Shown piece by piece: positions 56,398 through 62,892 of a stretch of 64,000 bases of DNA. The translations under genes and the position numbers were made by a program. Location of the stretch: the NCBI GenBank assembly GCA_051362555.1, contig CM120644.1:17630534-17694533 (forward strand), read 5' to 3'. Each line of letters opens with the position of its first letter. Position 1 is the first letter of the stretch. The notes beneath the pieces were generated by a model, which searched no databases, was not told the origin of the DNA, and saw nothing but the letters and a program-made list of their open reading frames with translations. This DNA comes from Lingula anatina. Lineage: Eukaryota; Animalia; Brachiopoda.

Positions 56398-56441
56398 TCA
56401 TCGGTTCATTTTCTTTAGTAGGATACCATGCATCATCTCCT
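56398..56441 (-). CDS. Exon 13: terminal coding segment
   Basis: ctatttcag|(E)EMMHGILLKKMNR-TGA; phase 1 matches exon 12; AATAAA about 40 nt downstream. Confidence 0.72.
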
Positions 56442-59400
56442 CTGAAATAGAGAGGTATGAATATGAGAGAGAGAGAGAGAGAGAGAGAGAGGGAGAGAGA
56501 GAGAGAGTACGATATGTGCCATGAGATCTTTGTAGGCCCTATTAACTAAAAGTAGATAAATTAGTCCACCAAACGATTCCATAATCACTTAAAACAAAAT
56601 TTAAAATAGTTTAAACACACGCAAATTTGTTGAAAAATAATATACCAAAGCTACAGTGGATGACGGATAACAACTTACACATACTGCACCTGTACATTAA
56701 CTAATACCTCAACTCTCACAACCCGTTAATTCTTCAAAAGAAAAACTGATTAGTTATCCCCGTCATTTTAGGACGGCCACTCACCTGCATTAGCCACCAG
56801 TAGCAGCAGAGCTTTGTTGAAGATCCAGGTGTGGCCTGCCACTTCGACCTTGACCCTGTCACCTGTCAGGACTGACTTCACGATACCAGTCTTTCCCAGC
56901 GCCTGCAATATGAATTACACGTGTACGTAATTTAGTGTGTCTGCCTTGTGCTTGTTGCTACATGAGCTTAAATATGACCGGTGTGACAGGAATATGGTAG
57001 TCCGCTAAGAATCGTAGTCCTTTCCCCATTACTTTGTACAGGTGACACTTGACCAATATACTAACCCCAGTACGACTAACTCTAATCTTTACTAATCATA
57101 TGGGAGCCCGGGCTTCTATTCCTAGGACTACATCTGTACCATTCCTGTTGTTCCACTGGTTTTACTTAAGAACTTAAGACCAAAGAAAGACCACAACTTA
57201 TAATTATAAGATAAAAAATCGGGACCTCAGTGAATTTGTCGCTCAGCTATCTTTTATTTACAGACGATTCAATCCACATCATAATATGGACAGTATGTTT
57301 ACACTTAATACTAAAGAAATAACCCGTTTCACAAGTCAAAAAAACTATCAGGCTTTGAGAAATGCAGACTGTATTGTATTCTCTGTATCCGTGTAGAGTT
57401 CTATACCTGCCACGACTTTTTAAAATAGCACATATAATCATTTCTCAAAAATTGCATGGAAGATAATGTTGAATACAAAGTTACCTTTTCCATACTGGAG
57501 TGCCACTCTCCGTGGCCAACCTGTAGAGCCTTGGCCTCCGATACCTCGACATCTTTGATTATGACAAAGTCCCCGGCGTCGAAATCCTGGTTGGGGTTAG
57601 GCTCCACCTTGATCAGGACTTCTGGATTGAAGTACCACCTGTCGGGGAAGAACTGCAGCTGGTGATTTTGATACAATATACTGGAATATACTTAAGTTAG
57701 TGTGTTCTTAGATTCAGTAGATATTTTCACTGATTGAAGCTCGGAGGCAAAGATTAATTCTTGAAGGATAACAAAATTTATATATCTGCGTCTCTCAGTC
57801 TCTTTAACAGTCTCTCTCTCTCTCTCTCTCTCTCTCTCTCTCTCTCACACACACACACACACACACACACACACACACACACACACACACACACCATATG
57901 CTTTTTCGTGTACACTGACTCTTTACAGGAATATTCCAAAATATGAACCAACAGGTCAAAGCAATTTGATAGCAAATGCATTTTTTCGTCTTTTACACGC
58001 CTCATCTTTAGAAAAAGGATAAATTGATAAATACAAGAGTAAAGAACTGTAAAATATGTAACGTACTTCCCACCGTTAATACACTCCACAAACACGTCCC
58101 CGTTGCTGTCTATGTTATTAACTATCCCCTTCACGCCGACATTCTGAATATGAAAGAAAAAAGCACAATCTAGAGCAAGAATCATATGACAAAACATGAT
58201 TTGAACGCTTTAAAGAATATCAAATATAGCAGTCAAAGAGGTATTTTTGAATAAAAAAACATATAAAACAAATTATATGCAAATTATGCAAATCGTGTTG
58301 ATACGTCACTGACGTGACGTCACGTACTTGTTTCATCTCGTCCATCCATCCCCCGTGTCCCTCCTGAAGAAGTTTGACCACGCTCTCCTCCGATGCAATC
58401 TGCACCACATCATACCGCTTAAAGAGGGCGCCAATAAAGTCCCGTCTACTCTCTCGTTTATCTCGTGGTCTACTCTGTTCGCTTGCCGTGCCGTCTGAAT
58501 TGATCTTCTGAAGCAGGGCGGGGTTCCAGGCCCATCTGAGCATGAAATGACGTCATATATTTAGTGCAATTCATGTAACATCCTTATTCTTTGAGACAGT
58601 CCAAATAGGCCTAATAAGGGGTAATTGTTGTTTGTAACAGAAATAAGTATAGTTTTGAGAAAGAAAAAAAGACTACCAAACACAATTTAATTAAAAAATT
58701 ACAGGATCGCCCATTTCACTCAGTTTTTAATAAATGTACTGTACCACTGAGTAATAAAAGATTATGCAGACTAATGGGTTTCGATTCATCATGTCATCTT
58801 TTCTAATATTTTGTTTTTCAAATTTATGGTCGATGATATGACCTAATTTTGATGTAAACAAAAAGACAAGATCTGGATTATATTTTTGATTACTACAGTT
58901 ATTAAAAGTCGTTATCTAAGGAAATTATATCACAAAAGGTACCTTCTACCAAAGCCACAGATTGATTTTTCGTAAGATATTCACAGATAATGTCTCTGGC
59001 TAAATATCGGCAATCTCCCAACAGTGATGTGGAAAATGTGCCTACAATATTTGCAACCCTGGTAGAGGGCACACAAAAGGCGTATAATGTTCTTTTAACT
59101 TACTTTAGGCCGTCTGAAAACCTCACTTGTATAGTGTGCAGCAATTTTTCCCCCACAGTGCCTTCTTTGCCAAGATACTACAGCAAAATGAAAGATAATT
59201 TATAACTTAAACATAAATAAACACCACGTTTTGCTTATATTTAATAGTCTTAAATCTGAATTTATTGTAATCTATGATGGAGCAATTTGTGTGTTGTAAA
59301 ATGTAAGAGTATCCACGATTCAATTTTGAACGACCTGTTGAATCTAAAATTAAAGGGGATTAAAGACCTGAATCAGAAGGTTGCCCCTATGATTAATTCC

Positions 59401-62400: not shown

Positions 62401-62892
62401 GCGTCGGCTCCGCCTCTCTCGCGGCGAATTTCTATCTGTTTTGCTGCCACCTGGTAAGGAAAAAATCGTTTACTAATGTCATAAAACTAATCTGAGAATA
62501 TGATCTGAAAGACACCACTTACCTGTTTATAACCAATGTTTTTTAGTATTTTAAGGTTCCATTTTTCCCTACAGGCATGACATATAAAAACATATATATA
62601 TAGGCCTACTGTATAAAGACCTTATTCAGCTATACTTCTTTCCTTCCTTTTTCTTTCTTTCTTTCTTTCTTTCTATCTCTCTCATTCTTCTTTCTTTTCT
62701 TTCTTTGCTTCTTTATCCATTTCATTCTATCACACACACAGTCAATCTTTTTTCATCACACCAACTGACCTCGACATCCCTCTTTGTGTCCACTCCCTTA
62801 TAAACCACGCCGAATCCTCCTTGGCCGAGTTTATGCATCAAGTTAATGATGTACTGGCCCATAGGAACGGCGCACTGGGGTGCTTCGGCCAT
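56398..62892 (-). CDS. Ser/Thr protein kinase (STK35/PDIK1L-like) fused to three Mind bomb SH3-like (REP) repeats; whole 13-exon model, 676 aa
   Basis: Exons 62892-62770, 62450-62140, 61930-61772, 61431-61328, 60958-60746, 60506-60160, 59688-59590, 59177-59104, 58535-58328, 58143-58067, 57638-57485, 56902-56785, 56441-56398 join in frame (2031 nt including TGA). Kinase motifs GQGGFG, VAAK, AMAEIKIL, HRDLKPPN, DFG, GTPCFMAPE, DIFALG. Repeat motif LQ.GHG.W...M...LGK.G.V...W.FNP occurs three times. Confidence 0.88.
56785..56902 (-). CDS. Exon 12: repeat 3, second half
   Basis: ttgcag|ALGKTGIVKSVLTGDRVKVEVAGHTWIFNKALLLLVANA(E)|gtgagt; phase 0-1. Confidence 0.92.
56978..57159 (+). mobile_element. 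MITE family E in kinase-gene intron 11
   Basis: CCGGTGTGACAGGAAT...GTAGTCCGCT...ATTACTTTGTA...TACCATTCCTG. Confidence 0.8.
57485..57638 (-). CDS. Exon 11: end of repeat 2 and first half of repeat 3
   Basis: cgacag|(K)WYFNPEVLIKVEPNPNQDFDAGDFVIIKDVEVSEAKALQVGHGEWHSSMEK|gtaact; phase 2-0. Confidence 0.93.
58067..58143 (-). CDS. Exon 10: repeat 2, second half
   Basis: attcag|NVGVKGIVNNIDSNGDVFVECINGG(K)|gtacgt; 77 nt, phase 0-2; G.V..ID..GDV.V pattern. Confidence 0.9.
58328..58535 (-). CDS. Exon 9: end of repeat 1 and first half of repeat 2
   Basis: ctcag|(K)WAWNPALLQKIN...FKRYDVVQIASEESVVKLLQEGHGGWMDEMKQ|gtacgt; phase 2-0. Confidence 0.92.
59104..59177 (-). CDS. Exon 8: repeat 1, second half
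   Basis: ctgtag|YLGKEGTVGEKLLHTIQVRFSDGL(K)|gtaagt; 74 nt, phase 0-2. Confidence 0.88.
59590..59688 (-). CDS. Exon 7: MIB SH3-like repeat 1, first half
   Basis: ttccag|FPVGSKVRVMDVEVSRAKEMQRNYGGWVDLMKH|gtaagt; 99 nt, phase 0-0. Confidence 0.9.
59903..60032. repeat. Compound (TG)n(AG)n microsatellite
   Basis: Read directly. Similar simple repeats at about 1601-1650 (AAAT), 7714-7761 (AAT), 29008-29070, 35481-35512, 36103-36180, 36667-36708, 45490-45617, 48098-48128, 48830-49022, 54110-54163, 56465-56506 and 57812-57893. Confidence 0.95.
60160..60506 (-). CDS. Exon 6: Pro-rich, poly-Ala, acidic and basic linker
   Basis: attcag|(E)EIKSSLPPPPPRPCK...DAAAAAAVAGLDDDEDD...QKRKKGGRK...KGKRRDDSDDD|gtatgt; 347 nt, phase 1-0, open in the frame required by both neighbours. 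Confidence 0.85.
60746..60958 (-). CDS. Kinase exon 5 (subdomains X-XI)
   Basis: tctccaag|(G)SMLACMIMPIGIQM...VKELIQKMVLHKREDRCTSQQVFDSINRIY(E)|gtaaga; subdomain XI Arg present; phase 1-1. Confidence 0.9.
61328..61431 (-). CDS. Kinase exon 4 (subdomain IX)
   Basis: ttttacaag|(G)YTASVDIFALGLMFVGMINFEKTGDIIPTIPDNP(G)|gtagga; phase 2-1. Confidence 0.93.
61772..61930 (-). CDS. Kinase exon 3 (DFG to APE)
   Basis: tttcag|(I)LLRYTGSDERPVIKVTDFGLSKVADVDLSKTFMMSTQAGTPCFMAPEQFGRE(G)|gtaaat; phase 2-2. Confidence 0.96.
62140..62450 (-). CDS. Kinase exon 2 (subdomains II-VIb)
   Basis: ccag|VAAKQIEI...AMAEIKILQKVPEHVNIIRLYD...IIMEYCNCGDL...HRDLKPPN(I)|gtaagt; phase 0-2. Confidence 0.96.
62770..62892 (-). 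CDS. Kinase-MIB repeat gene exon 1 (Gly-rich loop)
   Basis: MAEAPQCAVPMGQYIINLMHKLGQGGFGVVYKGVDTKRDVE|gtcagt; ATG in ATAATGG context; a candidate acceptor tttcag at 62936 suggests an upstream exon. Confidence 0.9.

What the first reader, a model, noticed from the sequence alone, without database searches (positions are those of the whole stretch)
56398..62892. Intact kinase fused to three Mind bomb REP (SH3-like) repeats with no ubiquitin-ligase parts
Seen: 13 phase-compatible exons give one 676-aa ORF with a catalytically complete kinase (GxGxxG, VAAK, alphaC Glu, HRD, DFG, APE), a linker, and three repeats of LQ.GHG.W...M...LGK.G.V...W.FNP. Established: this repeat (Pfam SH3_15) occurs twice in MIB1/MIB2 E3 ligases, next to Mib-Herc2/ZZ, ankyrin and RING domains, and in MIB1 it helps bind Notch-ligand tails. 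None of those other domains is present here. Inference: a substrate-recognition module of a ubiquitin ligase has been re-wired to a kinase, so it might phosphorylate or competitively sequester MIB-type substrates. I know no characterised protein with this layout, but I could not search databases.
Basis: partly seen in the sequence, partly recalled or inferred. Interest (0 to 1): 0.82.

Follow-up and report, generated by a model that had tools for sequence, protein, structure and literature searches.

The report
Brachiopod kinase with Mind-bomb-type repeats
A lamp-shell (Lingula) gene is spliced into one protein that joins an intact-looking protein kinase to three small binding barrels best known from the ubiquitin ligase Mind bomb; the barrels likely steer the kinase to a partner protein, a pairing that plants (KEG) and lancelets have also made, likely independently.

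Summary
Thirteen GT-AG exons give one 676-aa protein, 672/676 identical to the uncharacterised Lingula anatina RefSeq model XP_023931291.1. Pfam finds a kinase and three SH3_15 (Mind bomb REP) repeats, and no Mib-Herc2, ZZ, ankyrin or RING domain. Short RNA reads join kinase, linker and repeat exons. Lingula has four such loci. The annelid Owenia has a matching kinase and a matching ZZ+repeat triplet under neighbouring accessions.

The triplet forms its own clade with annelid cassettes carried by other domains, apart from the sampled MIB ligases. The same kinase carries a GTPase in a sea anemone. Kinase plus SH3_15 is already known in plant KEG, recurs in amphioxus with a different kinase class, and this scan noted similar layouts earlier in two protist genomes.

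Best reading: an RD-type Ser/Thr kinase of an expanded family near PDIK1L, aimed at an unknown partner by a mobile docking cassette. Binding of Notch-ligand tails is untested and less likely, because the dominant MZM site is absent. I found no paper on this animal layout. New variant of a known kind; moderate interest.

The parts
62770..62892 (-). Exon 1 (aa 1-41): start codon and kinase glycine-rich loop
   Evidence: Pfam Pkinase fragment; reads joining it to exon 2 as loose ends
62140..62450 (-). Exon 2 (aa 42-144): VAAK lysine K45, alphaC E61, HRD catalytic loop
   Evidence: read depth
61772..61930 (-). Exon 3 (aa 145-197): DFG, activation loop with T181, APE
61328..61431 (-). Exon 4 (aa 198-232): kinase subdomain IX (D204)
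   Evidence: joint to exon 5
60746..60958 (-). Exon 5 (aa 233-303): end of the kinase C-lobe
   Evidence: joint 60506-60746
60160..60506 (-). Exon 6 (aa 304-419): proline/alanine-rich linker, three predicted helices partly conserved in paralogs, charged stretch
   Evidence: spliced to exon 5 and to exon 7
59590..59688 (-). Exon 7 (aa 420-452): first half of SH3_15 repeat 1; the repeat begins at the phase-0 acceptor
   Evidence: reads
59104..59177 (-). Exon 8 (aa 453-476): second half of repeat 1
   Evidence: joints
58328..58535 (-). Exon 9 (aa 477-546): end of repeat 1, spacer, first half of repeat 2
   Evidence: joints
58067..58143 (-). Exon 10 (aa 547-571): second half of repeat 2
   Evidence: joint
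57485..57638 (-). Exon 11 (aa 572-623): end of repeat 2, first half of repeat 3
56785..56902 (-). Exon 12 (aa 624-662): second half of repeat 3
56398..56441 (-). Exon 13 (aa 663-676, stop): predicted C-terminal helix conserved in paralogs and Owenia
56352..56357 (-). AATAAA, candidate polyadenylation signal about 40 bases after the stop
   Evidence: sequence; use not tested

Best explanation
This is an expressed Lingula gene for a likely active Ser/Thr kinase whose three C-terminal Mind-bomb-type (SH3_15) barrels likely act as a docking module that brings it to a still unknown partner protein. Shown: gene structure, splicing of kinase to linker to repeats, intact catalytic motifs, repeat identity, absence of ligase domains, four Lingula loci. 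Inferred: (1) the kinase is switched on by phosphorylation of activation-loop T181, as is usual for RD kinases (established knowledge, recalled); (2) the barrels bind a partner, as MIB1 REP binds the JAG1 C-box and KEG's repeats bind MAPKKKs; (3) the flexible linker lets the kinase reach and phosphorylate that partner or its neighbours; (4) the protein arose when an old animal kinase lineage was joined to a mobile repeat-triplet cassette that lophotrochozoans also attach to ZZ and DUF4559 domains. The pathway is more likely stress or innate-immune signalling than Notch, but that step is weak and rests only on the domains these two modules accompany elsewhere.
For: Catalytic residues are intact and near-invariant in a 42-row alignment: K45 41/42, E61 41/42, HRD 42/42, K141 and N144 42/42, D162 42/42, T or S at 181 in 41/42; T181 aligns with the activation-loop Thr of ULK1. 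Read-derived exonic variants are 47 synonymous to 19 non-synonymous, in kinase (22:8) and repeats (15:7) alike, against about 3.6 non-synonymous sites per synonymous site. Four Lingula loci keep the layout at 39-53% identity. The AlphaFold2 model of aa 340-676 has pLDDT 84 with three barrels above 90; best PDB match is the MIB1 REP domain (Foldseek E 2e-13; Z 13.0, rmsd 12.8 over 138 residues). Mobility of both halves: the sister kinase in Actinia carries a septin/AIG1-like GTPase; the triplet recurs position by position in Owenia ZZ-REP3 and in Lamellibrachia-type proteins, two with DUF4559. Binding precedent: KEG repeats pull down MAPKKK18 and are stated to be needed for EDR1 binding (PMC11020294 passages); REP binds the ligand C-box (PMC11887331 passages).
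Against: No partner, substrate or kinase activity was tested. The repeat residues conserved across the cassette are largely those conserved in MIB too, so they do not point to a new ligand. The model's repeat-to-repeat packing differs from the MIB1 crystal (rmsd 12.8) and pTM is only 0.58. Reads are few (73 laid), 90-99% alike to the window, so some may come from divergent alleles or a close paralog, and no single read spans kinase to repeat. The repeat trees rest on 149 columns, 5 MIB and 2 MIB-like rows, and no Lingula MIB or KEG sequence was in hand.
Confidence: 0.65

Rival explanations
1. The repeats keep MIB's specificity: they bind the C-box of Delta/Jagged tails (or another MIB substrate), so the kinase phosphorylates or shields Notch ligands in competition with MIB.
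For: Repeats 2-3 align with MIB REP1-REP2 at 33-40% identity, with the Q/H/G/W/M and W..N positions shared. A sister relation to MIB is not rejected (p=0.11). The Owenia form has a ZZ finger, as MIB does. A fly Mib1 lacking MZM but keeping REP was dominant-negative with Notch-like defects (PMC11887331 passages), though that construct kept the rest of Mib1.
Against: The C-box/REP contact is the minor site and depends on the N-box/MZM contact; Mib1 without REP nearly fully rescues. MZM is absent here. The cassette falls outside the MIB clade and repeats 1-2 are only 1-4 points closer to MIB repeats than to the median SH3_15 repeat. The same repeat family occurs in plant KEG and a green alga, which lack Notch (lack of Notch is recalled).
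Confidence: 0.12
2. The C-terminal half regulates the kinase itself, by self-association that drives trans-autophosphorylation or by folding back on the kinase domain, and does not pick substrates.
For: [quoted passage not shown] Linker helices and the terminal helix are conserved in 3-5 of 5 family rows without an obvious partner in the monomer model.
Against: The same kinase lineage exists with a different C-terminal domain (Actinia) and the same cassette exists without a kinase, so neither half needs the other to fold or persist.
Confidence: 0.18
3. The fusion is an annotation artefact or a neutral, non-functional chimera.
For: One Lingula copy is annotated as two genes, kinase+linker and repeats (P0013, P0050), and the Owenia halves are separate models. 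Four reads of one run go from exon 6 into intron 5 and leave the window's sequence at 60591.
Against: Spliced reads across 5-6 and 6-7; four diverged loci with the same layout; excess of synonymous variants in both halves. The split Lingula copy is near-identical to the whole model P0004.
Confidence: 0.05

Closest known systems
Arabidopsis KEEP ON GOING (KEG): RING - kinase - ankyrin - SH3_15 ('HERC2-like') repeats
   Same: A protein kinase upstream of a C-terminal array of SH3_15 repeats in one chain (PMC11701565 section 7; a sunflower TKL-Pl-1 kinase with the same parts, PMC11646777 passage). Its repeats bind partner proteins.
   Different: KEG is an E3 ligase with RING and ankyrin domains and 7-12 repeats; here there are three repeats and no ligase part. 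KEG's kinase is classed TKL; this kinase groups near PDIK1L, away from the TKL-type rows. KEG itself was not in my trees.
Mind bomb MIB1/MIB2 E3 ligases (REP domain, PDB 4TSE, 4XI6)
   Same: Same repeat family and fold; repeats 2-3 resemble the REP1-REP2 tandem.
   Different: Three repeats instead of two; no Mib-Herc2, ZZ, ankyrin or RING; a kinase instead; the repeats form a separate clade.
Amphioxus Neuralized - SH3_15 x4-8 - RIPK/TKL-type kinase proteins (database models, uncharacterised)
   Same: Animal proteins that join SH3_15 repeats to a protein kinase without RING or ankyrin hits (P0019, P0023, P0029, P0084).
   Different: Opposite order (repeats first), different kinase class and different repeat clades; one origin for all these kinases is rejected (AU p=1.8e-5).
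STK35/PDIK1L (NKF4) kinases
   Same: Nearest named kinase family in my trees; a 'pdik1l-B' cluster is among the top feature matches.
   Different: About 30% identity in alignment; PDIK1L has a long N-lobe insert and no repeats. PMC2737284 (passages) found no genuine STK35 homologues outside vertebrates and sea squirts. Only one PDIK1L row, on a long branch, was available.

Membership tests
Eukaryotic Ser/Thr protein kinase, catalytically intact | Gly-rich loop, VAxK lysine, alphaC Glu, HRDxKxxN, DFG, APE, subdomain IX Asp | tested here: met
Eukaryotic Ser/Thr protein kinase, catalytically intact | Measured phosphotransfer activity | not testable with these tools
   needs purified protein
SH3_15 / Mind bomb REP repeat (PF18346) | Pfam score above cut-off and SH3-like barrel matching MIB1 REP | tested here: met
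   115.5 bits against cut-off 24, 3 stretches; 4TSE top match
Mind bomb E3 ligase (MIB1/MIB2) | MZM region (Mib-Herc2, ZZ, Mib-Herc2) | tested here: not met
   no Pfam hit; no tblastn hit in the window outside repeat exons
Mind bomb E3 ligase (MIB1/MIB2) | Ankyrin repeats and RING fingers | tested here: not met
Mind bomb E3 ligase (MIB1/MIB2) | REP pair nested among MIB REP pairs | tested here: not met
   separate clade 95/89 and 97/94; AU p=0.0008; deep sisterhood not rejected, p=0.11; few MIB rows
Mind bomb E3 ligase (MIB1/MIB2) | Binds Notch-ligand C-box | not testable with these tools
   no Lingula ligand sequence was in hand
KEG (plant RING-kinase-ankyrin-SH3_15) | Kinase followed by SH3_15 repeats in one chain | tested here: met
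KEG (plant RING-kinase-ankyrin-SH3_15) | N-terminal RING and ankyrin repeats | tested here: not met
KEG (plant RING-kinase-ankyrin-SH3_15) | Kinase orthologous to KEG's TKL kinase | not tested
   no KEG sequence in hand; the kinase lies apart from five TKL-type rows
STK35/PDIK1L (NKF4) | Kinase domain groups with PDIK1L to the exclusion of other named families | tested here: inconclusive
   shared group 97/94 and 91/91, but one long-branch PDIK1L row and many unnamed rows in between
ULK/ATG1 (label given to one paralog) | C-terminal MIT domains and grouping with ULK1 | tested here: not met
   no MIT family; ULK1 rows lie outside

The most novel reading that the evidence does not exclude
A kinase-(ZZ)-REP3 protein shared by brachiopods and annelids reads Notch-ligand tails, or another Mind bomb substrate, with its repeats and phosphorylates them: a kinase counterpart to Mind bomb that sets ligand activity by phosphorylation instead of ubiquitin.
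Probability: 0.1. Interest if true: 0.8.

Novelty: new variant of a known kind. Interest (0 to 1): 0.38.

Why it matters
It shows that the Mind bomb REP repeat is a mobile docking module in animals, not a part private to ubiquitin ligases. Kinases have acquired it at least twice among the proteins seen here (PDIK1L-like in Lingula, TKL-type in amphioxus and unnamed records), besides plant KEG. A ligase-free protein with only three repeats and a kinase is a simple system in which to ask what REP repeats bind apart from Notch ligands. Without a partner or phenotype it stays a lineage-restricted domain fusion of the kind common in marine invertebrates.

Tried and rejected
No whole genome is held for this window, so paralog order and the Lingula MIB and Notch-ligand genes could not be read from DNA. 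AlphaFold2 of the full protein on a 3-row alignment failed (pLDDT 38.5). A 60-row full-length alignment misplaced the repeat fragments (8-16% identity) and was dropped. Two copies of the C-terminal half gave no answer in the complex predictor (score 0.00); this is no evidence either way. The run search listed no RNA holder; the nine runs came by species label. The metagenome scan kept 80 of 283 kinase-like loci, all 25-35% identical, and none of the 80 holds a repeat. The Atlas feature search on the repeats gave only scores of 0.85 or less. The first conservation table mixed rows through duplicate names and was redone; only the variant and kinase counts are used. The first kinase tree did not finish its careful search and was redone with fewer rows. 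McMillan 2015 (PMC4355479) and Gu and Innes 2011 (PMC3091131) are not held; I know them only through papers that cite them, so the C-box contact residues could not be mapped. Rejected: ULK1/ATG1 or STE20 orthology (database labels of paralogs); a recent excision from a MIB gene; separate genes.
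Full report
Observation. I rebuilt the gene from splice signals on the minus strand: 13 exons between 62892 and 56398, all 12 introns GT..AG and phase-compatible, 676 codons and one stop, coding GC 0.50 against 0.33 in introns. A search with exon 2 returned 1 hit among 354 candidates, the RefSeq model XP_023931291.1 of Lingula anatina (LOC106156501, 'uncharacterized'), also 676 aa and different at 4 residues. 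Pfam gives Pkinase (aa 18-297, 170.7 bits) and SH3_15 in three stretches (115.5 bits), and no Mib-Herc2, ZZ, ankyrin or RING family. Five MIB proteins and the Owenia ZZ protein hit the 64-kb window only in the repeat exons.

Transcripts. Nine RNA runs were listed by species label; I laid seven of them, 6-30% of each, on two stretches (60040-62630 and 57900-59900). The kinase-to-linker joint 60506-60746 is seen in 5 reads of two runs and as 6 loose ends in a third. Four reads end at the exon 6 donor with loose letters that match the start of exon 7. Joints 4-5, 7-8, 8-9 and 9-10 are listed, and 1-2 and 2-3 appear as loose ends. In three runs all first mates lie on +, which by the tool's note means minus-strand RNA. 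Depth is low and reads are mostly 90-99% alike to the window, so alleles or a close paralog contribute. The link from kinase to repeats is a chain of junctions, not one long read. Against: four reads of one run pass from exon 6 into intron 5 and leave at 60591, which is not a splice acceptor; unspliced RNA of another allele is my guess. Of the 66 exonic variants in the shown rows (14 intron rows dropped, 13 rows not shown), 47 are synonymous and 19 not, with the same trend in kinase and repeats.

Kinase. All catalytic motifs are present and near-invariant among 42 aligned relatives; position 181 is T or S in 41 of 42 and aligns with the activation-loop Thr of ULK1. In trees of 31 rows the four Lingula kinases group with an Owenia kinase and a sea-anemone (Actinia) kinase (93/97, 94/92), inside a large set of unnamed kinases whose nearest named member is PDIK1L; ULK1 lies outside. 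The Actinia protein has a septin/AIG1-like GTPase in place of repeats. So the lineage predates the cnidarian split and takes different C-terminal modules (inference).

Repeats. The model of aa 340-676 shows three confident barrels, a less confident helical linker and a terminal helix (pLDDT 84.2, pTM 0.58). MIB1 REP is the best solved match, with different packing between repeats (rmsd 12.8). All three repeats have a phase-0 intron six codons after the motif Trp, repeats 1 and 2 share a phase-2 intron, and repeat 1 starts at a phase-0 acceptor, which fits tandem exon duplication and joining within an intron (inference). In a tree of 94 single repeats each Lingula repeat groups by position with Owenia and Lamellibrachia-type repeats (SH-aLRT 94, 87, 90). 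In a tree of 34 tandem pairs these form one clade (95/89; 97/94 under a mixture model) apart from seven MIB-type rows. Lingula+Owenia with MIB alone is rejected (p=0.0008); the whole cassette clade as sister of MIB is not (p=0.11). Limits: 149 columns, no Lingula MIB, no KEG.

Distribution. Lingula has four loci of this layout, 39-53% identical: this one, LOC106181717, and a pair with neighbouring accessions that is present on two scaffolds. One copy of that pair is annotated as two genes (P0013 and P0050). Owenia has the matching kinase (CAH1779268, CAH1779270, both partial) and the matching ZZ+triplet (CAH1779266 partial, CAH1779267) under neighbouring accessions with the same longest contig. 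I take a split orthologue as about even odds; strand and order were not seen. Among the best 150 of 673,387 hits in 1.84 billion representatives, only a Lingula paralog matches full length. Of 28 proteins scanned by Pfam (26 chosen for their repeats, 2 for their kinase), 8 non-Lingula proteins join a kinase to SH3_15: four named amphioxus models, one labelled 'archaeon' from a metagenome, three unnamed. Five kinases sampled from these are TKL-type, and a single origin with the Lingula kinases is rejected (p=1.8e-5). In the same scan SH3_15 also sits beside Neuralized, PH, SPRY, ADP-ribosyltransferase, DUF4559, ankyrin and U-box domains. The word-based searches have length limits and miss distant relatives, so the range is a lower bound.

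Literature. ECOD's paper (PMC11701565, section 7 read) states that Arabidopsis KEG has SH3_15 repeats, a kinase, ankyrins and a RING, and that zebrafish ftr97 has six repeats. PMC11646777 (one passage) lists a sunflower kinase of that build. PMC11020294, PMC3697954 and PMC4022593 (passages) describe KEG's repeats as protein-binding. PMC11887331 (passages) shows REP binds the ligand C-box, that this site is minor, and that Mib1 lacking MZM is dominant-negative. PMC2737284 and PMC11843878 were seen as passages. Ten searches listed no paper on an animal kinase with these repeats; the library lacks most subscription papers, and I opened no supplements, where Lingula kinome or domain tables might list it.

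Mechanism. Most likely (0.65) the repeats dock the kinase on a partner, which it or a neighbour is then phosphorylated; activation is likely through T181. Self-regulation by the C-terminal half is the main rival (0.18). An artefact is unlikely (0.05). Structure, splicing, motifs and relationships are shown; activity, partner and pathway are inferred.

Verdict. A real, expressed, conserved and apparently undescribed animal domain fusion. It works like the kinase-plus-repeat part of KEG without the ligase, is not a member of the MIB or KEG families, and is one of several independent kinase-SH3_15 pairings. Earlier notes of this scan report similar layouts in two protist genomes (unchecked). New variant of a known kind; interest 0.38.

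Noticed in passing
window 50602-51597, minus strand: Large exon of an adenylyl cyclase (Pfam AC_N, E 1e-19); short reading frames at 17220-17600 and 752-1030 look like later exons of the same gene but gave no Pfam hit. It is the next gene downstream, on the same strand.
   Followed up: partly
window 58940-59070 (intron 8): Short stretch hit by hundreds of RNA reads with unrelated flanks on both strands: a dispersed repeat carried in many transcripts.
   Followed up: no
window 57791-57894 and 59902-60033: Complementary (CT)n(CA)n and (GT)n(GA)n microsatellites in introns 10 and 6, about 100 nt and 91% complementary, bracket exons 7-10 and could pair in the pre-mRNA. Such microsatellites are common in this window, so chance is likely; skipping these exons would break the frame.
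   Followed up: no
window 62936-62937, minus strand: A pyrimidine-rich AG acceptor about 45 bases upstream of the start codon suggests a non-coding first exon further upstream.
   Followed up: no
P0015 (Actinia tenebrosa XP_031562348.1): Closest kinase relative outside Lingula is fused to a septin/AIG1-like GTPase, another uncharacterised layout.
   Followed up: partly
P0019, P0023, P0029, P0084 (Branchiostoma): Amphioxus family of Neuralized - SH3_15 arrays - RIPK/TKL-type kinase; both Neuralized and REP domains come from Notch-ligand E3 ligases, here without a RING hit.
   Followed up: partly
Atlas cluster: A 54-member cluster, mostly molluscan where known, joins Mib-Herc2, ankyrin and SH3_15-like parts to a PARP domain: another enzyme swap on Mind bomb modules.
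   Followed up: no
P0021 (RYY89616.1): A kinase with 11 SH3_15-like repeats labelled 'archaeon' groups with another metagenome protein of eukaryote-like build; the label may be a binning error.
   Followed up: no
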